Source of the DNA: Candidatus Woesearchaeota archaeon
GTDB lineage: Archaea; Nanobdellota; Nanobdellia; Woesearchaeales; ARS49
Reading direction: 5' to 3'
DNA length: 64,000 nt
NCBI GenBank assembly: GCA_038868995.1
Contig: JAWCRZ010000002.1
Span: forward strand, 24,726-88,725
Below the pieces are notes generated by a model that saw only the letters and a list, made by a program, of their open reading frames with translations, did no database searches and was not told where the DNA came from. Position numbers and translations under genes: made by a program. This document shows, piece by piece, positions 2,813 through 35,628 of this stretch. The first letter of the stretch is position 1. Each line of letters begins with the position of its first letter.

Positions 2813-2845
2813 TATTCGTCGAAATCAAGAAATGGTTTATAAATG

Positions 2846-3367
2846 TTATCTCAGCACGTATGCTCGGCCGTGCATCGTTGTCTCGGCAATTTTTTCCAAT
2901 GCTTCGCGAAGTGCAGCAGGATTTGTTTCTGTCCTGCCTATATATGGAATTTTTTCAAAGCCGATTGTTGATGCGCAGCAAAGTGTGTAATACACGAGCT
3001 GCAGTTCATCTCTTGGTGAAATGTGTTTCGCGTCTTCCGGCTCAGTGAAATGCCCAATGCCAAATCCTGCTATTATTTTCTCCCCTATGCGCTGGTAGCA
3101 TGCGTGCGGAGTGTTGAGAATGTTTGATAAGCGCCTGCGCAGCTTGTTCTCATCAGGATATTTGCTCCATACATCTGCCAATGAGCAGCTCTTGAAAGCG
3201 CTTCCGATATCTATTGTGGCAACATCCGGCTGAGTGTGGATTTCGTAGTAATGCCTTCTTTCATAGCCGGGAATTTCCACAACATTCAGGATTATTTTTT
3301 CAGCCGGCTTTGTCAGGCGCTTAAGCTCTTCCTCTGCACCTTCTACTCTCCAACAGATGTGGCTCAT
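2846..3367 (-). CDS. hypothetical protein, 173 aa, upstream of aIF2-gamma in the same orientation
   Basis: ORF with good coding appearance. It has HxT-like segments (GHFTEPE) but I could not secure a 2H-phosphoesterase or any other assignment. Confidence 0.5.
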   Translation of the reverse strand: MSHICWRVEGAEEELKRLTKPAEKIILNVVEIPGYERRHYYEIHTQPDVATIDIGSAFKSCSLADVWSKYPDENKLRRRLSNILNTPHACYQRIGEKIIAGFGIGHFTEPEDAKHISPRDELQLVYYTLCCASTIGFEKIPYIGRTETNPAALREALEKIAETTMHGRAYVLR

Positions 3368-15350: not shown

Positions 15351-17552
15351 GTGGCAAAAGAGGGAGCAAAGAAGTTAGTGTTTGCTGGCTTGATTCTTGT
15401 TATAGCTCTTTCTGTGGTTTTTGTGTGGCAGAATGATGCGCCGAAGTATGTTGTTCTGACAGGTCTTCAGGTGTATGAGCCGGCTGTCTTGGGAATTACG
15501 AATGTTTCTCCAGGTTTTGTACATCAGGCAGCCACGGTTCAGTTGAATGTTACCGGTACTGGTTTTAATTCGAGCGCTGTTTTGTTTTTTTCAAATCCTG
15601 ATATTTCTGTTCTTTCTCTTGTCGTTGTTAATTCCACTCTTGTTGAAGTTAATGTTTCTGTTGCGATTAATGTCTCTCCTGGATTTTATGATGTAACAAT
15701 TAATCAGATAACTGATGAATCAACTTTGCCTGCTGCATTGGAAGTTCTTGAGGGGCCTTTTGATGTTTCAACGCTGACTAATGTAACTCCTGATGATGGT
15801 TATATTAATACAAGTGAGACGTTGAATCTTACGTATAATATTACGACTGCTTCGGGTGTTGATAAGTCAAGTGTGAACGTGATAGGTGGTTGGATTAATA
15901 TTACTAATTTGAACACGTCCAACTGGACTGTTCTGAATATGACGAGTGCTATCGACCCTGAGGGCACGTTTACTGTTCAGTTTGAAGAGCACACGTTCAT
16001 AGAAGAGGGTTATTATTTGGGCGAGATGTATCTTGACTTGGAAGTTGATGGTGAGTATGTCGAGCGGGAGTATTATGTGTATTTTGGTGTTGGTGATATT
16101 ATTATTTTTAGTTTCTGTGGTGATTTCATTATTGAGCCGTTTTTTGGCGAGGAGTGTGACCCGGCCGGCGCTGCATGTGGCATTTGTACGGATAATGGCC
16201 AGCCGTGTGTTCCAGGTGGTGATACTGGTCTTTGTGCCGACCCGTTTGATCCTGATGTTTGCGTGCCTACTGGTGATGTGTGCGACCCGGTTTGTAAGTG
16301 CCAGCCGTTGTGCACTGAGCCGGAGTTTGTTTCATTTGACTGTACTGAGAATGCGCAGTTTGAATGCCCGTTGTCTGTTCCTCCTTTAACGCTTTGTTCG
16401 TTTGGAAATGCTGTTCTGTGTTGCGGTGGAATTGATGCTTTTAGCAACCCGTTCACTCCAAGCTATAATTTTGGCCCGTGCTCTCCGTTTGATGTATTTT
16501 CTGGTGGTTGTGAGACGGCAAGTTTGAACGTTGAGGGTTGTGATGAAACTTGTGTGAAAGTAACTGTGTGTGGTGATGATATTGTTGAGGGTGCCGAGCA
16601 GTGTGACCCTCCTGGTTCTGATTGCACGGCTCCATTTAGTGGCACGTGTGAAATTGATTGTCAGTGCCCTGGAGGCGTAATTGCTGATTCCGTGGGCATT
16701 TCAGCCGGGCAGCCGGAGCCGGAAATAGACCCGAACCTTGTTGTTGTTCTTCCGATTGGAAAGAAGTGTTGTACTGCTTTGCCGACTCCCAGTCCGACGC
16801 CTCCTCCTTTAGTTGGAGGCGGTGGTGGTGGCGGTGGTGGCAGGCCGTGTTATTTTGAAGTTATTGATATTTCTTCCGATGGCAAATCCACCACTATTCA
16901 TTTTGCCTCAAAGCCTAATTGTCCTTTGACAGTCTCGCTTGGCGGGCGTACGTTCAACGTAATAAAGCAGGATATTACGGTTACTGTTCCTTTCTATCCT
17001 GGTCCTAATGTTCCTGTTTTCGTTAATGGAAGGAAAATCGGAGAAACGCCCGAGGTTGTTCCTAAAGTTGAGATTCCCGCGCCTGTTCCAATGCCTGCTG
17101 CTCCTCCGTTCGTGACGCCTCCGAAGAAGGCGTGTCCGGAAGCTGCTTGTGTGCCGTTGCCTTATGGAATGGGGGTCCGTGATGATGTGTTGAGCGTAGC
17201 ATTTGGTGTTGATGTTGTTCCTTGTTCGCAGATTGATGTGACTGTTCTTGATTTGCTGGCATTGGTTGGCGATGCATCTGACAAGGCGCGATACGAACTG
17301 GTTAAAAGGTGCTGTCCGTGCCCGGTGATTGAGTATCCTGCTGCGCCGTGTCCGGCTTCGCGGTGTGAAAAAACTCTGAGCGGTGAACTTGGAGTTCGTG
17401 ATAGCTTGCTTAGTGCCCTGCATGGTGTGGCTGTTGTGCCGTGTTCTGTTATCGACATTTATGCTCTTGATTTGCTGGCATTGACTGGTGACGCTTCTGA
17501 CAAGGCTCGTTATCAGGCTGTAAATGCTTGCTGTCCGAAGCCCTGTCCGTAG
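15351..17552 (+). CDS. secreted/surface cysteine-rich glycoprotein (733 aa): N-terminal TM/signal, IPT/TIG-like domain, extremely N-glycosylation-sequon-dense region, Myxococcus-type Cys-rich repeat modules, Gly9 run, C-terminal tandem ~65-aa Cys repeats
   Basis: GTG start. Hydrophobic N-terminus. ITNVSPGF..VQLNVTGTGFNSS..VEVNVSV..NVSPGFYDVTI (IPT/TIG pattern). About 14 N-x-S/T sequons within ~150 aa. EECDPAGAACGICTDNGQPC and EQCDPPGSDCTAPFSGTCEIDC (TIGR02232-like). PTPSPTPPP linker plus GGGGGGGGG. Two C-terminal repeats ...VRDD/SLLSxxxGVxVVPCSxIDxxxLDLLALxGDASDKARY. Confidence 0.75.
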   Translation: MAKEGAKKLVFAGLILVIALSVVFVWQNDAPKYVVLTGLQVYEPAVLGITNVSPGFVHQAATVQLNVTGTGFNSSAVLFFSNPDISVLSLVVVNSTLVEVNVSVAINVSPGFYDVTINQITDESTLPAALEVLEGPFDVSTLTNVTPDDGYINTSETLNLTYNITTASGVDKSSVNVIGGWINITNLNTSNWTVLNMTSAIDPEGTFTVQFEEHTFIEEGYYLGEMYLDLEVDGEYVEREYYVYFGVGDIIIFSFCGDFIIEPFFGEECDPAGAACGICTDNGQPCVPGGDTGLCADPFDPDVCVPTGDVCDPVCKCQPLCTEPEFVSFDCTENAQFECPLSVPPLTLCSFGNAVLCCGGIDAFSNPFTPSYNFGPCSPFDVFSGGCETASLNVEGCDETCVKVTVCGDDIVEGAEQCDPPGSDCTAPFSGTCEIDCQCPGGVIADSVGISAGQPEPEIDPNLVVVLPIGKKCCTALPTPSPTPPPLVGGGGGGGGGRPCYFEVIDISSDGKSTTIHFASKPNCPLTVSLGGRTFNVIKQDITVTVPFYPGPNVPVFVNGRKIGETPEVVPKVEIPAPVPMPAAPPFVTPPKKACPEAACVPLPYGMGVRDDVLSVAFGVDVVPCSQIDVTVLDLLALVGDASDKARYELVKRCCPCPVIEYPAAPCPASRCEKTLSGELGVRDSLLSALHGVAVVPCSVIDIYALDLLALTGDASDKARYQAVNACCPKPCP

Positions 17553-17603: not shown

Positions 17604-18497
17604 ATGCTGAAATTGGAGCTTTCTGATGTTGTAAGAAAGGCAGCGATGGGCTTAGGTCTTGGAGTGCTCTTTTCTCAGGTAGACCCACAAGCGGTTGCCG
17701 CGCCTTCGGCTACTCATTCTCAGGACAGCGAAAAGCAGGATGAAAAGAAGCCTTACAAGAACAAGATAACTTACGAGCAAGCTAAGAAAGGTAGCAAAAA
17801 GACAAAGCGCGATTATATTATTGGAAAGATGTACGAGATGGGCATTCTGTATCACAAAGACCATTGCCCTGATGGTCATGTGGGTGACGTGTTTGATTTT
17901 GATGATAAATCTGATAAGAAAAGATTAGAGAAAAGGTTGGATGAAGAGTTAAAGTTTAATCCAGCATTATATAAGGCTGGTTTTGAAGAAGCGCGCGAGA
18001 GCAAATTAGCGTATCATTGCCGGGATCCTCCTGGCCAAAATGAAAGACTGCCATTTATCGTATTCTATTTGGAAGAAATATTTCCAGCAAAAGGCGAGGC
18101 AACTTCAGAAGATGAAATCACAAGCCGGCTAAGATATCTTAAGGCCAGTACTGAATATTTCAATACGGCAATATTTTTCGGGAAAAAGATGCCGCTTGCA
18201 AATGCCAGTATGAAGTTTCGGAGAGATACTGTGGGTTCTCTCTATGCCGGTTATGCACAACTTTCTAAGATAATTGACAATACGGATAAAGTGTCGGATG
18301 CTACAAGGCAGGATGTGCTGGAAAGATACTTGCACAATTATTACAACTGCATGAGGTGCTTTGAAATCAGAGAAGATGAAACGGTGCAAGAATTCGTAAA
18401 GCATGTTGTTGATAATATTAATTCAGGCATGAGGCAGCTCGGTTATGTTCACAAGTACGATGAAATAAAAAAAGAGTGGTCTTTGGAAAAAGAATAA
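17604..18497 (+). CDS. hypothetical (probably secreted) protein, 297 aa
   Basis: Strong SD-like aaggtggt 8 nt upstream. N-terminal hydrophobic segment AAMGLGLGVLF...AVAAPSA. Lys/Glu-rich. No family recognised. Confidence 0.6.
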   Translation: MLKLELSDVVRKAAMGLGLGVLFSQVDPQAVAAPSATHSQDSEKQDEKKPYKNKITYEQAKKGSKKTKRDYIIGKMYEMGILYHKDHCPDGHVGDVFDFDDKSDKKRLEKRLDEELKFNPALYKAGFEEARESKLAYHCRDPPGQNERLPFIVFYLEEIFPAKGEATSEDEITSRLRYLKASTEYFNTAIFFGKKMPLANASMKFRRDTVGSLYAGYAQLSKIIDNTDKVSDATRQDVLERYLHNYYNCMRCFEIREDETVQEFVKHVVDNINSGMRQLGYVHKYDEIKKEWSLEKE

Positions 18498-18546
18498 TGT
18501 TTAAATAGTAGTCTTTCTGATTTCCCTCTTAAAAGAGGGAATTTTG

Positions 18547-21500
18547 ATGAATCGCTTAATAAGTGGGCTTTCAGTTTTATTGGTTATAGCCCTTGGACTG
18601 AACGTCTTTCTTTACGAAGCCAGGGCTCAAGCGTCTCAATCACCTGTTGGTTATGAGAGGTATATTCCGGCCGTTTCTGCTCTTTGCCCCACTGTGGTTA
18701 TGGAGTGTGCCAAGGACAAGCCAGGCGTAAAGTCCGAGGAAATCAAGAAGCTGAAGCTTCTTGAGCTTATAAAGACTGGCAAGATGGCTCCAGGAACCGG
18801 TGGCACTTTGCTTGAAAAAGACATTCCTACCGATACTTTGGAATGTGATGATCCTAAGTGGGAAGAGTGGTGTAAATCAGGGCAAGCGAGCGCGACGGCA
18901 AATACTTTATGTGAAAAGCGCAAGGAGTGCTGTGGTGTCTGCCTGAAGAAACCAGAAGCAGTATTTTCTCCGCTGATCCGACAGGAATTCCTGAAGAAAG
19001 TGAAACCTGGTGCCACAATGCTGCAAGAGGATATTCCTGGTGACAAGCTCGCATGCGATGATAAGCGCTGGGGTGATTTATGCAAGCCAGGCAGTTATAC
19101 GTCAGCATATCTGTGCCAGTTGCTGGAAAGGTGTTGTATGCCCGCTGTTTGTACGAAAGAGCCTCCAGGTGTCCAATCTAAAGATATCAAAGATAGGCTG
19201 ATGACTGAAAAAGGAATTAAGCCTGGAATGACAGTGCCTGCTGCCGACGTACCAAGCGATATTCTGACATGCGCTGATAAAAAATGGGATGAATGGTGTA
19301 AGAATCCAGAGGATCCTTTGTGTAAAAAGCGAAGCGAATGTTGTGTTGACTGCATCAAAAATCCTGATGGTGTGATGTCTCCTGAAATATCAAAAGTTCA
19401 GTTTGAGGCGCGTCCATTCGGAACAGTGCCTGCTTCTACCGCAGCGCGTAAAATTCTTTTATGTGATGCTCCTGAGTGGGGTCCATTGTGTAATCCCAAT
19501 AATCAGAAATACGACAAGGATAACCCTCTTACGAAACTTCTTTGTCCTGCAAAAGAAAGATGTTGTCCGCTAACAGTAGAACCAGCCAAACAGCCAGGTG
19601 GGCTACCAAAGCCTTCGTTGGATGAAGAATGGAGTTGTGTATCTGTTGATAGAGCTGGCGAGAAAGGAGCTGGCAAGGAAAAATTAGTCATTAAACACAA
19701 AAATATACCTTTGGGAGCTGGGCAATATTTAGAAATGGAGCCTACGTGCGATTCTGCAAAACAGACACGCGACGCTTTGAGCAAAACTCCAGTATTTGGT
19801 TTTGCTGAAGCTGCGAACATTGCCAGATTGCTTGGTGAGATTGACGTTGCAATTGCCAAATGCTGCCCAGTGCAAACATGTCCTCCTACAGCGCAGGAAA
19901 AGCTTCCTAACGGCGCTCCGAATCCGTGCATGGATGCGAAGAAACGTGTGCCGATTGTGCATTTCGAGTTCGGCGGTAAGAAAAAGCTGAATCCTTGCTG
20001 TGACCCCCAGACGTGTATGCCACAGGTTGGTGTTTGCGGCTGTTGCAGCATGGATGCCAAGGGAAACCCTACTGGCACGTTCCTGCAGGGAAGGCATGCA
20101 AGTGGTCTTGTTGATATATTTGACCAGAACGGGAACATGGTTGGCAAGACAGATTGTTGTCCCGGCTCTGCTTGTCGCATTACTTTTACAACAATTTCTG
20201 AAAAAGCGTGCGTGAGAAACAAGTGTATTTGTGATATAGACAGCTTCCAGATTACCGGGCCGCCAATTCAAAGACCTATTCCAGGTGGGTTTATTATACA
20301 TGCATTTCAAGGTGTGCCTGTGAGGGATGTTTCAGACCAATTCTATGGAAGAAACATGTGGGGTTTGGCTCGTCCCAACAAGGCTGCTACGTGCAATGAT
20401 CAGGTCGCGTATGATCCGTTTGTAACAAAGAAAAATTGGAAGGAGGCTGTTGCCGCTTGCAATCCTTCTCCTCCAGGCGTGCAGCCGTGTCCACCTTGGA
20501 TTGCAGCCTTGTTCCCTAAGCTGTGCGGTCTTCCTGTTGGTCCTGGTCCTGATGTAAATCCAACCTCTGTGCCTGAGAATGGTCACTCAGTTGTAATCGT
20601 TGACTATCCTCCGCCTATCGAGGGCCCAACAAGCACTACCACGCAGACTTTTGGCAACGTGCAGCAGGTGAATGTTGCTCCGCCGTTGAACAATAAGGTT
20701 GCGTGTGCTGTTGCTGTTGGTCCTGGCAGGATTTCTGTTGCTCCTGAAGTGCAAGCACCTGCTGGTTGTACTCCTGTTATGTCTTTCTCGTGCTCTGGAG
20801 ACCAATTGCAGGCTGGTCTTATGGTTCCTGCTGATGTTATGGTGACTGGCGCGTATGTTGTGAAAAATGGCCGGTCAAGTCCGGTGCCAGTAAGCCATAC
20901 TTCTGGTCCTACCTGCGGCAGTATTTCATTGACCGATATTCGTTCCAATCAGATTGCGAATGCTGCGCCGTCTTCTTATAGTCCTGAGAAATTCACTCCG
21001 ATTGTAAGGCGTGAGCGTGCTATCACGCACGCTGATGTTGACAAGTCTCTGTCTACAGAGGGTGCAGACATAATTAAGATTGAATTGTTGGAGCCTTCTG
21101 ATGTTACAGTTACAATTGATAATGTTGACCGCGTGTTGCCTGCTCCGGAAAACCCGAGCTTGCGCTTGTTCAAGCCATTCAAGGTTTTATTCGCGCCTGA
21201 ATACAAGAATGGTATTCAGGTAACTGGCAAGTTGAACGTGCCGTTGTACATTGACCGTTCTTCTGTTGGCTTGTATGCTTTGGCGGGTGATTCTTGGTTC
21301 CCGATTCTTACTGGTCGTGAGGATAATTCGTATGTTGCAATTATTAATGATTTGAGGCCTTATATGACTGATAATCAGGTAACTTTTGCTTGGATGGGTG
21401 CGCATTGCCCAACCTGCCCTTCTGAAAAGCTTGAGTTGGTCTATGATGGTGGCGGCAGTGTGGCTGTTGTGTTTGTTCATGGTCTCACAAATGACAGGAC

Positions 21501-22617
21501 TCGCTTCCAGCCGGTTATTGACAGGGCGATTGTGACTAAAGCGCCGTATAAGCTTTACACTTTCAGTTATCAGTTTGATAAGTCTGTGGAGAGTGTTGCG
21601 CAGGAGTTTGCACGCCAGCTTAATGTGAATAGTGCTGAATGGTCTCGTGCGTATATCGTGTCTCATTCTGTTGGTGGTCCTTTGTCCCAGCTTGCTGTTA
21701 ATCACGCGCGCAATAATGGTTATTCTGTTGCTGGCAAGGTGCGTAAGCTTATTATGGCTGGTCAGCCGGGATTGGGTAGCCCTATTGCTGTTTACTTGAA
21801 GCTTTTGTCATGGCTCCCCACACAGAATAGCATTGCTACGCTTTTCGGCACTGATACGCCTTTCTATAGTTTGGCTGTTAATGGCTTGCAGGTAAATCAG
21901 AATCCTGGCACTGAGCCGGTAGTTATTGTGGGTACAAAGGAATTATTGCTCACTCAGGCTGATTTTGTTGAGGCGAATGATGGTGTTGTAGCTGGTACGA
22001 GCGCTGCACGCGTTCACAATCGTGATTTGAGCGCTGAACGGTGCAGCAATTATTTTGAGGTTTATGAAAATCATCTTGAGCTTATCTGGGCGCCTGGCAG
22101 TGTGTGGACTGTGTGGCACGTTATTGCTGAGGATGTTGCCACTCCTGATGCTCGTGTTGTTGAAGTTCAGGACGTTAGCCTTGGCGTTGTTGACTGCAAG
22201 CAGGGCGATGTTATCGTTTTGTGCGGAGAGCGGGTTTCGCAGGAGGCAGCGTTTGATGCTACTATGTGCAAGTGTGGCAATGGTGTTTGTGGCGTTGGTG
22301 AGAATTCTGATAATTGTCCTGCTGATTGTCCGACCGAGTACGCGTTCCTCTACTTGTGCAGGCTTTCGCCGTATGTTGTTTATCCTCTGCTTGTTATCTT
22401 CCTGCTCATCACGTCATTGTTTTCCTATAATGCAATCAAGCGTCATGAGCGCTCGAAGAACCTTACCAAGTTGTTCGTAATTGCGTTTGTGTTGCTTGGC
22501 CTTGTTGGATTGGCGAATTTAATCTGTGGTGTGCCGATGGTTATGGCTTACGTGATTAGCGGTTTCAGCATTATTCTTTTAATTCTGGCGCGCGCGCATG
22601 GCAGGCCCATTTATTAG
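18547..22617 (+). CDS. giant surface protein (~1356 aa): signal peptide, 4x tandem novel Cys module, central region, lipase-like alpha/beta-hydrolase domain, CGNGxCGxGE..CPxDC module, C-terminal 3-4 TM helices
   Basis: Signal MNRLISGLSVLLVIALGLNVFLYEARAQA. Repeats LECDDPKWEEWC / LACDDKRWGDLC / LTCADKKWDEWC / LLCDAPEWGPLC, each followed by LC...CC..C. VAVVFVHGLTNDRT...YIVSHSVGGPLSQ (HG oxyanion element plus GxSxG-like HSVGG). CKCGNGVCGVGENSDNCPADCP. Hydrophobic C-terminus. Confidence 0.8.
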   Translation: MNRLISGLSVLLVIALGLNVFLYEARAQASQSPVGYERYIPAVSALCPTVVMECAKDKPGVKSEEIKKLKLLELIKTGKMAPGTGGTLLEKDIPTDTLECDDPKWEEWCKSGQASATANTLCEKRKECCGVCLKKPEAVFSPLIRQEFLKKVKPGATMLQEDIPGDKLACDDKRWGDLCKPGSYTSAYLCQLLERCCMPAVCTKEPPGVQSKDIKDRLMTEKGIKPGMTVPAADVPSDILTCADKKWDEWCKNPEDPLCKKRSECCVDCIKNPDGVMSPEISKVQFEARPFGTVPASTAARKILLCDAPEWGPLCNPNNQKYDKDNPLTKLLCPAKERCCPLTVEPAKQPGGLPKPSLDEEWSCVSVDRAGEKGAGKEKLVIKHKNIPLGAGQYLEMEPTCDSAKQTRDALSKTPVFGFAEAANIARLLGEIDVAIAKCCPVQTCPPTAQEKLPNGAPNPCMDAKKRVPIVHFEFGGKKKLNPCCDPQTCMPQVGVCGCCSMDAKGNPTGTFLQGRHASGLVDIFDQNGNMVGKTDCCPGSACRITFTTISEKACVRNKCICDIDSFQITGPPIQRPIPGGFIIHAFQGVPVRDVSDQFYGRNMWGLARPNKAATCNDQVAYDPFVTKKNWKEAVAACNPSPPGVQPCPPWIAALFPKLCGLPVGPGPDVNPTSVPENGHSVVIVDYPPPIEGPTSTTTQTFGNVQQVNVAPPLNNKVACAVAVGPGRISVAPEVQAPAGCTPVMSFSCSGDQLQAGLMVPADVMVTGAYVVKNGRSSPVPVSHTSGPTCGSISLTDIRSNQIANAAPSSYSPEKFTPIVRRERAITHADVDKSLSTEGADIIKIELLEPSDVTVTIDNVDRVLPAPENPSLRLFKPFKVLFAPEYKNGIQVTGKLNVPLYIDRSSVGLYALAGDSWFPILTGREDNSYVAIINDLRPYMTDNQVTFAWMGAHCPTCPSEKLELVYDGGGSVAVVFVHGLTNDRTRFQPVIDRAIVTKAPYKLYTFSYQFDKSVESVAQEFARQLNVNSAEWSRAYIVSHSVGGPLSQLAVNHARNNGYSVAGKVRKLIMAGQPGLGSPIAVYLKLLSWLPTQNSIATLFGTDTPFYSLAVNGLQVNQNPGTEPVVIVGTKELLLTQADFVEANDGVVAGTSAARVHNRDLSAERCSNYFEVYENHLELIWAPGSVWTVWHVIAEDVATPDARVVEVQDVSLGVVDCKQGDVIVLCGERVSQEAAFDATMCKCGNGVCGVGENSDNCPADCPTEYAFLYLCRLSPYVVYPLLVIFLLITSLFSYNAIKRHERSKNLTKLFVIAFVLLGLVGLANLICGVPMVMAYVISGFSIILLILARAHGRPIY

Positions 22618-24111: not shown

Positions 24112-24226
24112 GGGCGTGTAGTCTAGTGGATAGGACGTTGGGCTTCGGTCAGCAGCTGCTATGAAGGCCTCTGAGCAATCTGTTGCAGGATACCCAAAAA
24201 CCGGGGTTCAAATCCTCGCACGCCCG
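24112..24226 (+). tRNA. tRNA-Arg (anticodon UCG) with a 43-nt intron (24149..24191) at the canonical 37/38 position; CCA not encoded
   Basis: Manual cloverleaf. Acceptor GGGCGTG/CACGCCC. D-arm GTCT-AGTGGATA-GGAC. Anticodon stem TTGGG/CCCAA, loop CTTCGG|intron|A. T-arm CGGGG-TTCAAAT-CCTCG. Discriminator G, followed by a T-run. Confidence 0.7.
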
Positions 24227-30957: not shown

Positions 30958-32274
30958 ATGAAATGGTTGTTTTTTTTGTTGGTGTTGAGCGTTGGTGTCA
31001 GCGCGGTTGTTAATGGTAATGATTTGCCAGTGAATCTTAATAAGATTGAATGCTCTCAATGGATTACGGGAACTACAGGGCTGAATCCTAATTATCTTCA
31101 GTATTTCTTGGAGAAGCGTCTTATTTTGTTTGGCAGTGAAGATTTAATTTTCCCTATTATAAATGCTGTTGCGTGTGACGCCACTGTCAACAGGCATTTT
31201 TTCGAGGTTAATGGTATTTTTGCAAATTGTGGTCCTGTTGAGGAGGGAAGTACGTATTTCCCTGATAACCCTTGCGCGTGTACTTTGACGAGTTCTTTGT
31301 CCCTTGAAGGCAACGATCCCAATTTGCTTGTCCATTTGACCAAGGAGGACAGGGAGATTATTCTTCCTAATGCTTGGGCTAGATTAAAAGTCGCGATGGA
31401 TTGCCTTATTGAAAATTATTCGCCTGAAGACGATGAGCCGGTGATTGTTGGTTCTGCCACTTGGTTTAATGATGTAAAGCCCTGTTATGTGAGTGCTATT
31501 AATATCTTGGGAATGTTGGAGAATATTTACAGCCGTACTCCTGAAGCGTTTTTCCTTGTGCAGAAATTGCAGGAGCTTGAGGTCGAGCTGATGCACAAGC
31601 TTGCTTTAGAGGACCAGAAGGCCAAGGCTGCTTGGATAGTTCTTCCGAACACATGCAATGTGTTTCCCATCAATGCTCATACTTCCGAAGGCATTTTGAA
31701 GAAGAACATATTCCTGAGTCCTAATGCGGCTATGACTTTCTGGAATGCTGTTTGGGGAAACTGTGGAGGAATAGGAAATTCTTTTGTTCAGTCGCAGATG
31801 GAGTGTTTTGAGCAGCATAAGATTGATATTTTGAATAATGCTTTGAAAGTTGTCTGCGACCCGCTTGATGGAGAAGAAGGTGATATTGAGGAAGTGTTCT
31901 TTTTGAGCCCGTTATTGTTAGGCAATTGTAATAACGCTGTAACAGACATGGAATGCCGGTGCAAGGATGCCTTTATCTCAGCCGCGTTGAATATTGACCA
32001 GTGCTTTAGTGATGGCGACTGTCCTGGTGGTGGTATAGATACAGATGCTGCAAGCTTGAACAGTATTAACACTTTGCAAAGTAATGGCTGCTTGCAATGC
32101 CTGGAAAGAAGTAATGCGCACGGTGGTGGTACGACATTTACTGGTTCTGGAAGTAGCGACTCGCCTACCGGCGCTTTTGCTTTTAGAGCTTCTGGGAATG
32201 GCGGCGCTTTTGCTTTGGTCTTGGCTGCTGCGTTGTTGTTTGCAGCATTGTTATTCATTTTGAGAAAGCGCTGA
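30958..32274 (+). CDS. secreted protein with C-terminal TM anchor and basic tail (439 aa)
   Basis: SD-like gaggtga upstream of the ATG. Signal MKWLFFLLVLSVGVSA. Many Cys residues. C-terminus ...GNGGAFALVLAAALLFAALLFILRKR (a PGF-CTERM/archaeosortase-like tripartite tail). Confidence 0.65.
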   Translation: MKWLFFLLVLSVGVSAVVNGNDLPVNLNKIECSQWITGTTGLNPNYLQYFLEKRLILFGSEDLIFPIINAVACDATVNRHFFEVNGIFANCGPVEEGSTYFPDNPCACTLTSSLSLEGNDPNLLVHLTKEDREIILPNAWARLKVAMDCLIENYSPEDDEPVIVGSATWFNDVKPCYVSAINILGMLENIYSRTPEAFFLVQKLQELEVELMHKLALEDQKAKAAWIVLPNTCNVFPINAHTSEGILKKNIFLSPNAAMTFWNAVWGNCGGIGNSFVQSQMECFEQHKIDILNNALKVVCDPLDGEEGDIEEVFFLSPLLLGNCNNAVTDMECRCKDAFISAALNIDQCFSDGDCPGGGIDTDAASLNSINTLQSNGCLQCLERSNAHGGGTTFTGSGSSDSPTGAFAFRASGNGGAFALVLAAALLFAALLFILRKR

Positions 32275-35200
32275 TTTTCTTTTTTCAAGTTCTTTTTTCA
32301 GTTCTTCATTTTTGATTTTATCGCACAGTTCTATCCAATCTTCGTATAATGCATGAATTAATGGTTCATCTATTTGTTTTAGAAGGTTTTCCGCTTCTTG
32401 GTATAATTCCATTGCTTTTTGATAATCTTTGGTGTGCACGTATGTTCTTCCCAGTCCAAAACGCGCGGTTCCTCTTAGCTCTGTATGCCTTAATCTGTCG
32501 GCTATTTTTATGGCTTTTTCTGCTGCTTGTTTTGCTTGTAGGATTTCTCCTTTTTTAATCAGTGCATCGGCAAGATTGTTGTAAGCCAGTCCTAAAATGT
32601 AGCTGTCTCCGAGTGGTTCTGATAAAGCAATGGCTTCTTGTATTGTTTTTATTTTTTCTTCTCCTTTGAATTCCATTCCTGCGTTTACTTTGATAAGGCT
32701 TTCCAAATATTTGTTGCCTGTTTTTTTTGCAAGCACAACACCTGCTTCGTAATGAGGTTTTGACTTTTCTAAATCATTCAAATAAAGTAAAAAGGAGTTT
32801 ACGTGTAGTTTCAGCTGCAATTCATCTTTCAAACTTTCTGGCAGTTCATTTGAAATCTGAAATCCTGCTTCAAATGCTTGCAGTGCTTTTTGGTTTTTTC
32901 TTAAGCGTTGGTACGCAAGTCCTTTCGCGTTTTGCGCCAGCCCGTATATGTATTTGTGTTGTGTTGTCGGTGTTGTTATTTTGTTTATTCTTTGTTCAAG
33001 TTTTTCTCCATATGTTAATCCTGTTTTGTTTTGTTGGTTGTCCGTGAACCATTTTTGCGCTTTCCAGAGGTATTCTGTTGCTTTGTCGTCGTCATCTCCG
33101 TGTTCGTAGTCCCATGCGAGTGCTGTCAGTTGGTCTTCTCCGTCTCCGTATAGTTTTTTTCTGCTGTCGCCTATTTTTGTATGCGCCCGCGCCCTTGGTA
33201 TCGGCCTTATTGCTGTTTCGTATATTGCGTTTTTGACAAGGTTGTGCTTGAATTCTATTGTTCCGTTGTGTGTTCTTAGAAAGTCGGCTTTTTCCAGCGC
33301 GTGTATTGCATGGTCGATTTCTCCTTGTGCTTTGCCGAGTGCTTCTTCAAGCAGTCGTTTTGGGAATGTTTCTCCGAACATGCACGCTGCGTACTGCAGC
33401 ACTTCCTGTTGTTCCGGCTCTTTGATTTGTCTGTACCTTTCGAGCACGAGTTTTTCTATGCTGTCAGGTATGGTTATCTCGGCTGTTTTTATGAGCGTGC
33501 CGTTTTGTATGAACTGGTTGTTTAGGAGGTAGTTTACCACTTCTTCTATGTACAGCGGTATTCCTTTGCTTTGCTGGAGGACGAACCGGGCGAGTTTCTC
33601 GTCCGGGACTGCATTAATAAGGTGTTCTGTGAGTTGTGTTGTGCCTTGTTCGCTGAGTTCTCCGAGTTCTATTTTTTCCCCTGTTAGTATCTGTTCCGCT
33701 ATTTCCCTGAATTCTTTGTCTTTTGTTTTTTCTCTTGGCCTGTAGTTGGTGAGAATTCGCGCTTGCGGTAGTTGTTCGTGGAGCCATTGTATTGTTTGCA
33801 AGCTTTTTTCGTCTGCCCAGTGTATGTCGTTGAATATGAGCAAACTTTTTTCCTGTCCGATTAGCTCCAGCAGGAGTTTTCTCCTGGCTTCTTCGAGTTG
33901 TTTTCCTGTCTGGACTGGTTTTTCATAGCTGAGTCCGAGCCAGTGGTGGGCTATTCTTCTGTTTTCTTCATCTGTTATTTTTTCAAGTTTTTTTCTTGTT
34001 TCCGGGTCTGCTGTTGTTATGCCTAAAGCGTTTCTTACAAGGTCCTGGAGCAGGTATTCTGGAGTGTCTTTTGCCTGTTGTGCTGCTGATGCTCTGTAGA
34101 CGTTTTTGTTGATGTTTTGTATGTAGATTTCTTCTGTTTTTTTGGTCAGCTCTGTTTTTCCGTATCCCGCGTCTGCTATGATGTGCGCTATTTTTGATTC
34201 CTGGTTGATTATTTCTGTTAGTTTTTTTATCTCATTATCTCTGCCTACGAGCGTCTTCTTGGTTGCCCGTTTGGTTAGCCCTTTCGCCGGCTTTATTGGC
34301 CTGTAGACAGCTACCGGCTCTTCTATGCCTTTGAAGGGCATTTTGCCGATGTATTCCGCTCCTTCCGGTATTGTCATCAGCACCTGTTCATCGTCATCTA
34401 TTGCTTTTTTCATGAGCCGCGCTGCAAGGTTGACGTGATTGCCAAGCATTGTGAACGTTCTTCTTTGCCTTGTGCCTAGTGGCCCGACGTATACTTCACC
34501 GTGTGCCACTCCGATTCTGGGGCTTTTGTATTCGAGTTCTGCTTCTTCCAATAGTTCTTTTAGGTGTTCGTTTTGCCTTAGCCATTTGTCGAGCTGTACT
34601 GCTGTTTCTCTTGCTGCTTCGTAATGCTCGTGTTTTTCTCCTGCGTAGTCCACCCTGCTTCTGAAGCGCGCTATGAAGACCGTGCGGTACAGCTTGTCAA
34701 TTTCTCCGTTGAATTGTTTTTCAAGCTCTCTTAGTGTTTCAAAGTGTGTTTGGTATGCCTCGGTCAGTTTTTGCGGGTCTTCTTCGTGGTGTCTTGCCAA
34801 GCTCCTTAGCGTTGGGAGGTATCCGAACATGAGTGTTGCGTGTTCCATGCCTCCTGTTGTTTGGGTGAAGATTATTTCTCTTGTAAGTGGCGGGAAGAAT
34901 CCAAGCAGGTGCTTTATGCGAGCTTCGAGTTTTGGTATTTGTTCTTCATACCATTTTTTGTTTTCCGGGTGTTGTAGTGGCTGCGGTTGTTTTGTCGTTA
35001 CGCAAACGGGTGCTTCTTGGCTCAACTCGTATGTGTGTTCTGCAACCCGTCTGAATTGCAAAGACGGATCTTCAATGATTTGTCTCGTTGTTTCGTCAAT
35101 CCAGATTTTTCCCGGCTTTGATTCCTCCTCAAGTTTGTATGCGTGCTCCAGCGCTGGCCCTCCTACGACGTTTATTCTGCGCTGTCCGTCTTCCACCACG

Positions 35201-35628
35201 CCTGAGAATATGGTTCCTGTTGCCATGCCTTGCCTCACGCTGAGCTTTATTTCTTTCTTGTTGGCTGTTTCTTCCGGCAGGGCGAGTATTTCGCGCGCTA
35301 TTTCAGCCGCTCCATAGACCGCATTTGTGGGGTTTTTGAATACCGCCACTCCCGCGTCACCCTCGTAATACTTTATTGTACCTTCATATTGGTTTTCGAG
35401 CAGGTCGAAGATTGTGTATATCTCTCCTATTCTGTTTGTCCATGCGTCTGTCGCCATTTTTCCTTCCTGTAGTTTTCTTTGAGTTATTTCTGTGAATCCT
35501 TTGAGGTCGCTTTTCCAGACGGTTCTTTTGTTTACTCTTGCAGGTTCGTCTATGTCTTTTGGAAGGAAGCTTTCAAGGTAGCGTGCATTCCGAAGTAGTT
35601 TTTCATATTTTTGTTGGATGTCTTCCAT
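32251..35628 (-). CDS. multidomain signalling protein: tandem class-III nucleotidyl (adenylate/guanylate) cyclase homology domains, STAND/AAA+ P-loop NTPase and TPR repeats (1125 aa)
   Basis: Cyclase domain 1: DLKGFTEIT...YEGDAGVAVF...VRQGMATGTIFSGVV...INVVGGPALEHAYKLEEESKPGKIWIDETT. Cyclase domain 2: PRIGVAHGEVYVGPLGTRQRRTFTMLGNHVNLAARLMKKA...VLMTIPE. Walker A IIADAGYGKTELTKK. C-terminal TPR-like helices (LAYNNLADALIKKGEILQAKQAAEKAI...). Confidence 0.75.
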   Translation of the reverse strand: MEDIQQKYEKLLRNARYLESFLPKDIDEPARVNKRTVWKSDLKGFTEITQRKLQEGKMATDAWTNRIGEIYTIFDLLENQYEGTIKYYEGDAGVAVFKNPTNAVYGAAEIAREILALPEETANKKEIKLSVRQGMATGTIFSGVVEDGQRRINVVGGPALEHAYKLEEESKPGKIWIDETTRQIIEDPSLQFRRVAEHTYELSQEAPVCVTTKQPQPLQHPENKKWYEEQIPKLEARIKHLLGFFPPLTREIIFTQTTGGMEHATLMFGYLPTLRSLARHHEEDPQKLTEAYQTHFETLRELEKQFNGEIDKLYRTVFIARFRSRVDYAGEKHEHYEAARETAVQLDKWLRQNEHLKELLEEAELEYKSPRIGVAHGEVYVGPLGTRQRRTFTMLGNHVNLAARLMKKAIDDDEQVLMTIPEGAEYIGKMPFKGIEEPVAVYRPIKPAKGLTKRATKKTLVGRDNEIKKLTEIINQESKIAHIIADAGYGKTELTKKTEEIYIQNINKNVYRASAAQQAKDTPEYLLQDLVRNALGITTADPETRKKLEKITDEENRRIAHHWLGLSYEKPVQTGKQLEEARRKLLLELIGQEKSLLIFNDIHWADEKSLQTIQWLHEQLPQARILTNYRPREKTKDKEFREIAEQILTGEKIELGELSEQGTTQLTEHLINAVPDEKLARFVLQQSKGIPLYIEEVVNYLLNNQFIQNGTLIKTAEITIPDSIEKLVLERYRQIKEPEQQEVLQYAACMFGETFPKRLLEEALGKAQGEIDHAIHALEKADFLRTHNGTIEFKHNLVKNAIYETAIRPIPRARAHTKIGDSRKKLYGDGEDQLTALAWDYEHGDDDDKATEYLWKAQKWFTDNQQNKTGLTYGEKLEQRINKITTPTTQHKYIYGLAQNAKGLAYQRLRKNQKALQAFEAGFQISNELPESLKDELQLKLHVNSFLLYLNDLEKSKPHYEAGVVLAKKTGNKYLESLIKVNAGMEFKGEEKIKTIQEAIALSEPLGDSYILGLAYNNLADALIKKGEILQAKQAAEKAIKIADRLRHTELRGTARFGLGRTYVHTKDYQKAMELYQEAENLLKQIDEPLIHALYEDWIELCDKIKNEELKKELEKRKSALSQNE

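What the first reader, a model, noticed from the sequence alone, without database searches (positions are those of the whole stretch)
18547..22617. 1356-aa membrane-anchored giant with a lipase-like alpha/beta-hydrolase domain embedded in a Cys-rich surface protein
After the signal peptide and four Cys modules the protein runs about 600 aa without recognisable domains. Next comes a segment VAVVFVHGLTNDRT...YIVSHSVGGPLSQ...GQPGLGSP, at about nt 21430-21800. It has the HG oxyanion-hole element and a GxSxG-like nucleophile elbow (HSVGG), as in PGAP1/LCAT/lipase-class-2 hydrolases. After it come a CGNGVCGVGENSDNCPADCP module and 3-4 C-terminal TM helices. Such a large Cys-rich extracellular scaffold carrying a catalytic esterase/lipase-like domain is unusual. 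It may act on host or partner cell lipids, or on glycan acyl groups, which would fit a symbiotic or episymbiotic lifestyle. That last idea is speculative.
Basis: partly seen in the sequence, partly recalled or inferred. Interest (0 to 1): 0.65.

Follow-up and report, generated by a model that had tools for sequence, protein, structure and literature searches.

The report
Lipase-like hydrolase anchoring DPANN surface giants
This 1,356-residue archaeal (Woesearchaeota) surface protein carries a probably active lipase/esterase-type enzyme next to its membrane anchor, and the same enzyme-plus-anchor unit ends hundreds of otherwise unrelated giant surface proteins in these tiny archaea, so it is probably a core part of how their cell surface works.

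Summary
Window 18547..22617 (+) encodes a 1,356-aa protein. From the N-terminus it has a conserved signal peptide, four ~70-aa Cys modules, about 460 aa with no family hit, and then a C-terminal unit of ~550 aa that is conserved across a family. The unit consists of an all-beta module, an alpha/beta-hydrolase, a short linker, a CxCGNGxCGxGExxxNCPxDC Cys knot and a conserved 3-TM domain.

The hydrolase reading is supported:
- The AF2 core has pLDDT 84-97.
- 279-420 PDB fold matches at E<=1e-3 are all alpha/beta hydrolases, with bacterial lipases at the top.
- A family profile hits lipase BlEst2 at E=8e-13.
- HG, H-S1041-x-G-G, D1145 and H1176 are 91-100% conserved in 107 members from different 50%-identity clusters.

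The window protein itself fails every curated Pfam/NCBIfam threshold. NCBI already names it "alpha/beta hydrolase".

The unit ends at least 226 protein clusters of 500-7,600 aa. Every named source is Woesearchaeota or Nanoarchaeota. The N-terminal parts vary (FG-GAP, beta-helix, lamin-tail, LamG).

The substrate is unknown. I consider a membrane-proximal ester hydrolase acting at the cell's own surface most likely, and action on a host envelope the main rival. This is a new variant of a known kind, of moderate interest.

The parts
18547..22617 (+). Whole gene: 1,356 codons plus a TAG stop. It encodes a secreted, C-terminally membrane-anchored surface protein.
   Evidence: ORF list and translation. 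It is 100% identical to NCBI 'MAG: alpha/beta hydrolase [Candidatus Woesearchaeota archaeon]' from Met52 onward.
18547..18627 (+). Signal peptide, aa 1-27, with an A-R-A | Q cleavage-type motif. The database gene calls omit it.
   Evidence: Hydropathy maximum of 2.47. The hydrophobic N-terminus is conserved in L001 upstream of the called start, with a GTG start. Cleavage is inferred from the AxA motif and was not tested.
18706..19569 (+). Four tandem ~70-aa Cys modules (aa 54-341). They are specific to this lineage and evolve fast.
   Evidence: MAFFT alignment of M1-M4 shows conserved C...W...C...LC...CC. The modules are found only in P0001 and P0002. Identity is 65% to L001 and 24% to P0003.
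19570..20943 (+). A second Cys-rich stretch (aa 342-563) and a Pro/beta-rich stretch (aa 564-799). No family could be assigned.
   Evidence: No Pfam or NCBIfam hit. Shared only with the nearest relatives P0002-P0004.
20944..21363 (+). All-beta module directly upstream of the hydrolase (aa 800-939). It is the first part of the conserved cassette.
   Evidence: phmmer finds it directly upstream of the hydrolase in 40 or more family members. AF2 predicts strands only, with pLDDT ~90.
21364..22131 (+). Alpha/beta-hydrolase (lipase/esterase-type) domain, aa 940-1195. It includes the conserved C954-x-x-C957 and C1166.
   Evidence: AF2 core pLDDT 84-97. Foldseek gives 279 and 420 PDB hits at E<=1e-3, all alpha/beta hydrolases. 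The A1 profile hits BlEst2 6wpx at E=7.9e-13. 226 cluster relatives. Identity is 89% to L001 and 77% to P0003.
21478..21483 (+). His978-Gly979, the oxyanion-hole 'HG' element after the first core strand.
   Evidence: His is 91% and Gly 99% conserved in 107 members.
21661..21678 (+). Nucleophile elbow S-H-S1041-V-G-G. The Ser1041 codon is at 21667-21669.
   Evidence: Conservation: His 99%, Ser 97%, Gly 100%, Gly 93%. The motif lies at the strand-turn-helix junction in both models. It aligns with the SYSKGG elbow of BlEst2.
21979..21981 (+). Asp1145, the putative catalytic acid, in the N-D-G-V-V motif.
   Evidence: Asp is 100% and the following Gly 98% conserved. It sits in the loop after the seventh core strand. 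It aligns with ENDGAVT of BlEst2.
22072..22074 (+). His1176, the putative catalytic base.
   Evidence: 100% conserved. It sits in the loop after the last core strand and before the terminal helix.
22132..22266 (+). Linker, aa 1196-1240, with conserved G1205, C1217 and G1227.
   Evidence: Conservation. Poorly modelled, pLDDT 43-61.
22267..22332 (+). Cys knot CKCGNGVCGVGENSDNCPADCP, aa 1241-1262.
   Evidence: The five Cys, one Glu and one Asp are 96-100% conserved. The motif is present in 107 of 151 relatives about 11 aa after the domain. The same motif occurs on its own in unrelated lineages.
22333..22614 (+). Conserved 3-TM domain, aa 1263-1356. TM1 is 1267-1299, TM2 is 1305-1327 and TM3 is 1332-1351. 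The basic K-R-H-E-R loop is predicted to be cytoplasmic.
   Evidence: Hydropathy. AF2 helices with pLDDT 76-91. Sequence-level conservation with E down to 1e-18. 96 of 151 relatives match a knot+3TM profile. Conserved positions are C1271, P-W, H-E-R, C1327 and a terminal His.

Best explanation
The gene encodes a secreted surface protein of a Woesearchaeota (DPANN) archaeon.

Shown:
- The C-terminal ~550 aa form a conserved cassette: an all-beta module, a lipase/esterase-type alpha/beta-hydrolase, a short linker, a Cys knot and a 3-TM domain.
- The catalytic Ser1041-Asp1145-His1176 triad and the HG oxyanion element are preserved across the whole family.
- The hydrolase is the slowest-evolving part of the protein.
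- The same cassette ends hundreds of otherwise unrelated large proteins in the lineage. Their N-terminal parts are adhesin-type modules that diverge quickly.

Inferred:
- Topology. The signal peptide exports the N-terminus. TM1 runs from outside to inside, and the basic KRHER loop is cytoplasmic. The hydrolase therefore sits outside the cell, only ~70 residues (linker plus knot) from the cell's own membrane.
- Activity. It is an active serine ester hydrolase.
- Site of action. I think it most likely works at or just above the cell's own membrane surface, on an ester-linked acyl group of a membrane-embedded or envelope-bound substrate. Candidates are an acquired ester lipid, a glycolipid, or an acylated glycan or protein. 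The logic resembles PGAP1, where a lipase-like domain sits on a TM domain and deacylates a membrane-embedded glycolipid.
- Role of the N-terminus. The long variable part reaches outward for binding.

The enzyme identity and the architecture are well supported. The substrate and the site of action are guesses.
For: Fold:
- Two AF2 models give mean pLDDT 81 and 83, with the core at 84-97.
- Foldseek against PDB gives 279 and 420 matches at E<=1e-3. All are alpha/beta hydrolases, led by Lipk107, BlEst2, the Proteus, Pseudomonas and Acinetobacter lipases, and thioesterase domains.

Sequence:
- The family profile hits BlEst2 at E=7.9e-13, 7x2p 'putative lipase' at 1.4e-6 and family I lipases at ~1e-3.
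- 22 of 28 members hit Pfam DUF676, DUF7379 and Abhydrolase_6, and 16 of 28 hit PGAP1.

Catalytic residues in 107 members:
- HG 91% and 99%.
- H-S-x-G-G 99%, 97%, 100% and 93%.
- Asp 100%; His 100%.
- They occur in the canonical order: after strand 5, after strand 7 and after strand 8.

Purifying selection: identity to P0003 is 77% in the hydrolase, against 24-35% in the distal regions.

Cassette:
- 137 of 151 relatives have at least one C-terminal TM, and 107 of 151 have the knot.
- 96 of 151 match the knot+3TM profile.
- 40 or more share the upstream module.

Variable N-termini contain FG-GAP, LTD and beta-helix/NosD domains, and LamG or parallel beta-helix by source names.

Lineage:
- All named sources are Woesearchaeota or Nanoarchaeota.
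- The 'Methanosarcinales' labels are refuted by 90-95% nucleotide identity to Woesearchaeota/Nanoarchaeia MAGs.

PGAP1 precedent for a lipase-like domain working on top of a TM domain: PMC10761859.
Against: - The window protein itself passes no curated threshold: PGAP1 13 bits against 24.3, DUF7379 13.1 against 33.
- Triad geometry could not be measured, because model coordinates are not exposed.
- The linker and knot, which set the distance to the membrane, are poorly modelled, with pLDDT 43-61.
- No solved structure matches the whole cassette, and PGAP1 is not among the top 50 fold hits. The PGAP1 analogy is therefore one of logic only.
- Archaeal membrane lipids are ether-linked (established knowledge), so an obvious ester-lipid substrate in the cell's own membrane is not guaranteed.
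- Fold neighbours also include thioesterases, so acyl-transfer or thioester chemistry is not excluded.
- There are no expression, activity or localisation data.
Confidence: 0.6

Rival explanations
1. The enzyme has the same identity, but its target is the host or partner cell. The adhesin-like N-terminus docks on another cell. The hydrolase then attacks that cell's ester lipids (a bacterial partner), or deacylates its envelope glycans or S-layer glycoproteins, to gain access or to scavenge lipids.
For: The variable, fast-diverging N-terminal adhesin modules suggest partner-specific binding. The closest characterised relatives are secreted bacterial lipases and esterases. DPANN archaea depend on hosts for lipids (PMC11035636, listed; abstract only read).
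Against: In nearly all members the hydrolase is the membrane-proximal module, only ~70 residues from TM1 and behind up to 7,000 aa of ectodomain. This is a poor position for reaching another cell unless the membranes are tightly apposed. Known DPANN hosts are archaea with ether lipids (established knowledge). Nothing in the neighbourhood points to host attack.
Confidence: 0.25
2. Cis-acting maturation module. The hydrolase acts on its own polypeptide or anchor. It might act as a peptidase or esterase that sheds the giant ectodomain, or as a transacylase that links the protein covalently to a lipid or envelope polymer. This would explain why it always travels with the anchor.
For: There is strict physical linkage of hydrolase, knot and TM domain across very different N-termini. 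Cys residues are conserved at the membrane interface, at C1271 and C1327. Fold neighbours include thioesterase and acyl-transfer domains. BlEst2 undergoes C-terminal propeptide processing, according to its PDB titles.
Against: Sequence neighbours are lipases and esterases, not alpha/beta-fold peptidases. No conserved cleavage-site-like motif was identified. There is no precedent that I know of.
Confidence: 0.1
3. Catalytically dead scaffold. The alpha/beta fold serves only as a rigid base or binding domain.
For: The window protein is a divergent member, with S-H-S-V-G-G instead of [AG]-H-S-[LM]-G-G, and it fails the Pfam thresholds.
Against: Ser, Asp, His and HG are all retained in the window protein and are 91-100% conserved in the family. 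Pseudoenzymes normally lose these residues.
Confidence: 0.04
4. Assembly or gene-calling artefact, in which a chimeric contig fuses a surface protein with a hydrolase.
For: The source is a metagenome-assembled genome. Database gene calls differ at the start.
Against: The same continuous ORF with the same neighbours is present in an independent JGI metagenome. The same architecture occurs in more than 150 clusters and in 24 species-representative genomes.
Confidence: 0.01

Closest known systems
BlEst2, Bacillus licheniformis lipase/esterase (PDB 6wpx propeptide form, 6wpy mature form)
   Same: It is the best sequence match among solved structures: profile E=7.9e-13 over ~190 residues. The match covers the HG strand, the Ser elbow (SYSKGG against [AG]HS[LM]GG), the helical cap and the N-D-G acid motif. 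It is also among the top fold matches, with TM 0.61-0.67 normalised to the target. Like this family, it has an additional non-catalytic domain C-terminal to the hydrolase.
   Different: BlEst2 is a soluble secreted bacterial enzyme of ~490 aa. It has no giant N-terminal region, no Cys knot and no TM domain. Identity in the structural alignment is only ~18%. The window's C-terminal linker could not be modelled, so equivalence with the BlEst2 C-terminal domains is untested.
PGAP1 / Bst1, GPI inositol deacylase (Pfam PF07819; structure paper PMC10761859)
   Same: In both, a lipase-like serine hydrolase domain faces the non-cytoplasmic side and is fused to a TM domain. PGAP1 deacylates a membrane-embedded glycolipid (abstract). 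16 of 28 family members hit the PGAP1 Pfam model at E down to 1.2e-6. The window protein hits it weakly, at E=0.09.
   Different: PGAP1 has 10 TM helices that form the lipid cavity. Here there are 3 TM helices with no detected similarity. PGAP1 is not among the top 50 fold hits. The window protein is below the Pfam threshold. PGAP1 is a eukaryotic ER enzyme, and GPI anchors of that type are not known in these archaea. The resemblance is one of logic, not membership.
Bacterial family I 'true' lipases (Pseudomonas, Burkholderia, Proteus, Acinetobacter LipA; Bacillus LipA)
   Same: They give profile hits at E ~1e-3 over the N-terminal half (1qge, 1cvl, 1tah, 1ys1, 9g8u) and are top fold matches (4hs9, 6jd9, 1ex9, 9g8u). 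The [AG]-H-S-x-G-G elbow matches the A-H-S-M-G-G and G-H-S-x-G-G elbows of these lipases (from my own knowledge of the Arpigny and Jaeger classification; not tested here).
   Different: These lipases are small, soluble and secreted enzymes. Some need a foldase or Ca2+. Identity is 12-16%, and the C-terminal half, including Asp and His, did not align at sequence level.
Pfam DUF676 (putative serine esterase) and DUF7379
   Same: These are the most frequent specific Pfam hits of family members: 22 of 28 each, with best E of 1.4e-8 and 8.1e-8.
   Different: Both are domains of unknown function defined on other proteins. The window protein scores 13.1 bits against a 33-bit cut-off for DUF7379 and does not hit DUF676. 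Neither model covers the beta module, knot or TM domain.
Giant multi-domain surface proteins of other DPANN archaea (for example the SPEARE proteins of Nanohaloarchaeota; from my own knowledge, not checked here)
   Same: They share the concept of very large DPANN cell-surface proteins that combine adhesion-type modules with an enzymatic domain and are thought to mediate host interaction.
   Different: The domains are different (serine protease and restriction-endonuclease-like, as I recall), and so are the lineage and the anchoring. No homology was tested.

Membership tests
Alpha/beta-hydrolase fold superfamily (serine hydrolases) | A central mostly parallel beta-sheet flanked by helices, recognisable by structure comparison | tested here: met
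   AF2 core pLDDT 84-97. Foldseek gives 279 and 420 PDB matches at E<=1e-3, all alpha/beta hydrolases.
Alpha/beta-hydrolase fold superfamily (serine hydrolases) | Nucleophile elbow Sm-x-Ser-x-Sm-Sm at the strand-turn-helix junction after core strand 5 | tested here: met
   S-H-S1041-V-G-G lies at the strand (aa 1034-1040) to helix (aa 1043-1056) junction. Ser is 97% and Gly 100% conserved.
Alpha/beta-hydrolase fold superfamily (serine hydrolases) | Acid after strand 7 and His after strand 8, giving the sequence order Ser-Asp-His | tested here: met
   D1145 and H1176 are each 100% conserved in 107 members. Their positions relative to the predicted strands are canonical.
Alpha/beta-hydrolase fold superfamily (serine hydrolases) | Triad geometry: Ser-His and His-Asp within hydrogen-bond distance | not testable with these tools
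   Model coordinates are not exposed to the script environment.
Alpha/beta-hydrolase fold superfamily (serine hydrolases) | Oxyanion-hole element (HG type) after core strand 3 | tested here: met
   H978-G979. His is 91% and Gly 99% conserved.
Alpha/beta-hydrolase fold superfamily (serine hydrolases) | Hydrolytic activity | not testable with these tools
   This needs a biochemical assay.
Pfam PGAP1 (PF07819) / GPI inositol deacylase | Score at or above the Pfam gathering threshold | tested here: not met
   13.0 bits against 24.3 for the window protein. 16 of 28 relatives hit at E<=0.01, with a best E of 1.2e-6.
Pfam PGAP1 (PF07819) / GPI inositol deacylase | A 10-TM domain forming the acyl-chain cavity under the lipase-like domain (PMC10761859) | tested here: not met
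   There are only three TM helices. PGAP1 structures are absent from the top 50 fold matches of the cassette model.
Pfam DUF676 (PF05057) / DUF7379 (PF24096) | Score at or above the Pfam gathering threshold | tested here: not met
   For the window protein, DUF7379 scores 13.1 bits against 33 and DUF676 is not listed. Relatives hit each family in 22 of 28 cases, so the family borders these models while this member is too divergent.
   The window protein has no hit. Only 2 of 28 (best E 0.0036) and 1 of 28 relatives hit these models.
BlEst2-like / family I bacterial lipases | Significant sequence similarity across the catalytic domain, including elbow and acid motif | tested here: met
   The family profile hits 6wpx at E=7.9e-13, aligning HG, the elbow, the cap and N-D-G. 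The window protein alone hits only 7x2p, at E=0.006.
BlEst2-like / family I bacterial lipases | Lipolytic substrate range and interfacial lid behaviour | not testable with these tools
   A helical cap insertion between strands 6 and 7 is predicted, but its function is unknown.
The DPANN 'beta module - hydrolase - Cys knot - 3-TM' cassette family (defined here) | All four conserved parts present in order at the C-terminus of a signal-peptide-bearing protein | tested here: met
   The window protein has all four parts. It is a divergent member, with 27-45% identity to most others.

The most novel reading that the evidence does not exclude
The cassette is a DPANN-specific, membrane-integrated lipid- or glycolipid-processing machine. 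The 3-TM domain and the knot present a membrane-embedded acylated substrate to the lipase-like domain, as in PGAP1. Fusion to hypervariable adhesins couples partner contact with remodelling or uptake of acquired lipids. This would be a missing piece in how lipid-auxotrophic Woesearchaeota/Nanoarchaeota obtain or tailor their membranes.
Probability: 0.2. Interest if true: 0.8.

Novelty: new variant of a known kind. Interest (0 to 1): 0.55.

Why it matters
Woesearchaeota and Nanoarchaeota are abundant, uncultivated archaea with small genomes. How they interact with partners and where their membrane lipids come from are open questions.

This analysis gives one conserved, probably catalytic module that sits at the base of hundreds of otherwise unrelated giant surface proteins in the lineage. 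Its residues are easy to target: Ser1041, Asp1145 and His1176. The module could be used in three ways:
- as a sequence marker for finding the lineage's surface and adhesin repertoire in metagenomes;
- as a target for activity-based probes (fluorophosphonates) in enrichments;
- as a defined ~460-aa ectodomain for expression and substrate screening.

If it proves to be only a generic esterase, the practical outcome is an improved annotation. That would include the correct start codon with the signal peptide, the domain boundaries, and a candidate new family model that covers members current Pfam models miss.

Tried and rejected
- The same scan with the window domain alone found nothing.
- A 4-sequence sub-alignment worked, but it is biased towards members with the exact CGNGVCGE motif. 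The taxonomic range it gives is therefore a lower bound.
- The word-index homology searches were weak. They returned 2 hits for the full protein and 11 for the profile, and most of the 11 were generic hydrolases. The exhaustive search was the informative one.
- A query of the Asp/His half alone against PDB sequences gave only chance hits. Asp1145 is therefore tied to a solved lipase only through the BlEst2 profile alignment, and His1176 only through conservation and topology.
- Operon and partner idea: the two upstream genes (733 aa and 297 aa) are syntenic only in the 76% relative. They are not found next to other family members, apart from one weak hit in L020. I rejected them as conserved partners.
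- There is no paralogue of the domain elsewhere in the window.
- 'Methanosarcinales' as a second host lineage was rejected, because those loci are 90-95% identical at nucleotide level to Woesearchaeota/Nanoarchaeia MAGs.
- The sigma-70 promoter and terminator scan gave counts at the shuffle expectation, and it is not applicable to archaea in any case.
- Literature searches found no description of this cassette. The library is incomplete, so this is only weak evidence of novelty.

Full report

Yes. The + strand carries one uninterrupted ORF from ATG 18547 (with an in-frame TTG at 18544) to TAG 22615-22617, giving 1,356 aa.
- The product is identical to an NCBI protein named 'MAG: alpha/beta hydrolase [Candidatus Woesearchaeota archaeon]'. 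It is 76% identical to a JGI metagenome protein.
- Both database calls start at Met52.
- In the relative's contig, the upstream 48 codons encode the same hydrophobic N-terminus behind a GTG start: VNRLISGLSFLLIIVLGLNFVLYEAKAQ.
- An intron-sized tRNA hit at 24112-24226, which ARAGORN does not call, fits an archaeal genome.

**2. Anatomy of the protein**

- aa 1-27 are a signal-peptide-like segment ending in A-R-A | Q.
- aa 54-341 are four tandem ~70-aa modules that align with each other (C-x8-C-x9-17-C-x5-CC).
- aa 342-799 are Cys-rich and then Pro-rich, with no family hit.
- aa 800-939 are an all-beta module.
- aa 940-1195 are the putative hydrolase.
- aa 1196-1240 are a linker.
- aa 1241-1262 are the motif CKCGNGVCGVGENSDNCPADCP.
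- aa 1263-1356 hold three TM helices.
- The loop after TM1 (KRHERSK) is basic. With an exported N-terminus, this fits an outside-to-inside TM1 and places the hydrolase outside the cell. This topology is an inference.

**3. Is it an alpha/beta hydrolase?**

On its own, the window protein gives only sub-threshold signals, but they agree with each other:
- PGAP1 at E=0.09, DUF7379 at 0.092 and Lipase_3 at 0.26.
- Lysophospholipase L2 at 0.27.
- PDB 7x2p 'putative lipase' at 0.006.

An exhaustive phmmer search with aa 935-1232 against 1.84 billion cluster representatives found 226 relatives, 189 of them at E<=1e-10.

I aligned 107 relatives that match over nearly the whole domain length. Conservation is as follows:
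- His978-Gly979: 91% and 99%.
- His1040-Ser1041-x-Gly1043-Gly1044: 99%, 97%, 100% and 93%.
- Asp1145 100%, with Gly1146 at 98%.
- His1176 100%.

A 28-sequence profile (A1) hits solved lipases:
- BlEst2 6wpx at E=7.9e-13. The alignment pairs the HG strand, the Ser elbow, the helical cap and the N-D-G acid motif.
- 7x2p at 1.4e-6.
- Burkholderia and Pseudomonas family I lipases at ~1e-3.

Individually, 22 of 28 members hit Pfam DUF676, DUF7379 and Abhydrolase_6, and 16 of 28 hit PGAP1.

AF2 with this alignment gives mean pLDDT 81, with 84-97 over the core. Foldseek against PDB returns 279 hits at E<=1e-3. All are alpha/beta hydrolases, led by Lipk107, BlEst2 and the Proteus and Pseudomonas lipases, followed by thioesterase domains.

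In the models, Ser1041 sits at the strand-turn-helix elbow. Asp1145 is in the loop after the next-to-last core strand. His1176 is in the loop after the last core strand. This is the canonical order. I could not measure distances, because coordinates are not exposed.

**4. The wider finding: a conserved C-terminal cassette**

Among the 151 listed relatives:
- the domain is nearly always near the C-terminus of a large protein of 500-7,646 aa;
- 107 have a CG[ND]GxC motif about 11 residues after the domain;
- 137 have at least one TM helix after it.

The TM region is conserved in sequence, so it is more than a generic anchor.
- The window's aa 1262-1356 match 20 relatives at E down to 1e-18.
- A knot+3TM profile matches 96 of 151 relatives.
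- Its conserved non-hydrophobic positions are C1271, P-W, the H-E-R loop, C1327 in the TM2-TM3 turn, and a terminal His.

The module upstream (aa 800-939) is found directly before the hydrolase in 40 or more relatives.

A model of aa 800-1356 (alignment A3) has mean pLDDT 82.6. It shows a confident all-beta module, the alpha/beta core and three TM helices. The linker and knot are poorly modelled. A fold search of this model matches only the alpha/beta core. No solved structure shares the arrangement, and PGAP1 is not in the top 50.

**5. What varies**

- N-terminal regions of relatives contain FG-GAP repeats, lamin-tail domains and right-handed beta-helix/NosD domains. Source names also give LamG-like and parallel beta-helix.
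- The four Cys modules of the window protein occur only in its closest relative.
- Identity to the third-closest relative, P0003, rises from 24-35% in the distal regions to 41% in the beta module, 77% in the hydrolase, 82% in the knot and 54% in the TM domain. The enzyme is the most constrained part, and the outward-facing parts diverge fastest.

**6. Who has it**

- Every source name is Woesearchaeota or Nanoarchaeota.
- A scan of GTDB species-representative genomes found 24 loci with the hydrolase domain (22 complete, 2 cut by a contig end). All are labelled Nanoarchaeota, Woesearchaeota or Nanoarchaeia, apart from eight with 'uncultured Methanosarcinales' TPA labels.
- Two of those eight could be checked, and they are 95% and ~90% identical at nucleotide level to Woesearchaeota and Nanoarchaeia MAGs. 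I do not trust the Methanosarcinales labels.
- That scan was seeded on the exact knot motif, so the range is a lower bound.
- Some MAGs carry two paralogues (L002/L003 and L007/L008). The window has only one copy.
- The knot motif alone also occurs in Myxococcales, Chloroflexota, Saccharibacteria, Micrarchaeota and Iainarchaeum proteins without the hydrolase. It is an independent, mobile module.

**7. Context**

- The gene follows two secreted or unknown genes (733 aa and 297 aa), in the same order in the 76% relative. This block lies beside housekeeping genes, including arginyl-tRNA synthetase and a radical-SAM/TRAM enzyme.
- These neighbours are not found beside other family members. I do not treat them as functional partners.

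**8. How it most likely works**

Shown: an intact, strongly conserved serine-hydrolase active site of the lipase/esterase neighbourhood, fixed next to a conserved TM domain at the base of variable adhesin-like ectodomains.

Inferred:
- The domain is extracytoplasmic and active.
- It is only ~70 residues from TM1, and the TM domain co-evolves with it. I therefore favour action at the cell's own membrane or envelope surface, on an ester-linked acyl group.
- This is analogous in logic to PGAP1, whose lipase-like domain sits on a TM domain and deacylates a membrane-embedded glycolipid (PMC10761859).

Two things weaken it: the membrane-proximal position, and the ether nature of archaeal lipids (established knowledge). 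It is not excluded, especially for bacterial partners or acylated glycans. A cis-acting processing or anchoring role is a minor rival. A dead scaffold and an assembly artefact are very unlikely.

**9. Comparison with the known, and novelty**

- The domain belongs to the alpha/beta-hydrolase superfamily. All testable defining features are met.
- It sits between BlEst2/family I lipases and the DUF676/DUF7379/PGAP1 Pfam models.
- The window protein is not a member of PGAP1, DUF7379, Lipase_2 or LCAT by their own thresholds.
- NCBI already labels it generically as an alpha/beta hydrolase, so the bare enzyme call is not new.
- I found no description of the four-part cassette, or of its recurrence across at least 226 clusters of DPANN surface giants, in the searchable literature. 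Current family models do not capture it.
- I rate it a new variant of a known kind, with interest 0.55.

Noticed in passing
window 24112-24226 (+): Rfam calls a tRNA here (55.6 bits) that spans 115 nt, and ARAGORN does not report it. It is probably an intron-containing archaeal tRNA gene.
   Followed up: no
window 15351-17552 (+): A 733-aa secreted Cys-rich protein lies two genes upstream of the giant. It has CGDxxxExxExCDP-type motifs, a run of nine Gly, and a duplicated ~75-aa C-terminal unit (…GVRDxxLSxxxGVxVVPCSxID…LDLLALxGDASDKARY…CCP). It is conserved and syntenic in the 76% relative. It has only weak family hits (CoaZ PGGG repeat at E=0.0016).
   Followed up: partly
window 17604-18497 (+): A 297-aa protein with no family hit lies between the two Cys-rich genes. 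It is conserved in L001. There is one weak hit (E=1e-4) to an ORF directly downstream of a family gene in L020.
   Followed up: partly
L001 13964-15784 (+): In the relative's contig, the giant is followed by a further ORF of more than 600 aa that is related to the 733-aa upstream protein (E=1e-16). The window has unrelated minus-strand genes at that position (a DoxX-like protein and a methyltransferase).
   Followed up: no
L019 3-17009 and L021 3-17024 (Woesearchaeota MAGs): A single ORF of more than 5,660 aa runs off both ends of each 17-kb locus. The hydrolase cassette is in the middle (aa ~2,663-3,019), followed by TM helices and more than 2,600 further residues. NCBI calls part of one of them 'SpoIIE family protein phosphatase' (P0009, 5,821 aa). 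In this subfamily the cassette may link a giant ectodomain to a giant cytoplasmic, possibly signalling, part.
   Followed up: no
L029 6537-10460 (Polyangiaceae MAG): A 1,308-aa ORF is made of about 50 tandem ~21-aa units that match the Cys-knot portion of the family profile. The knot motif therefore exists as a stand-alone repeat outside archaea.
   Followed up: no
window 32251-35628 (-): A 1,124-aa protein combines an adenylate/guanylate cyclase domain, an AAA_16 (STAND-type) ATPase and TPR repeats.
   Followed up: no
L004, L005, L006, L009, L011, L014, L017, L022: These GTDB-representative contigs are labelled 'uncultured Methanosarcinales archaeon' (TPA assemblies). L011 is 95% identical at nucleotide level to a Woesearchaeota MAG, and L017 is ~90% identical to a Nanoarchaeia MAG. 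The taxonomic labels of these records look wrong.
   Followed up: partly
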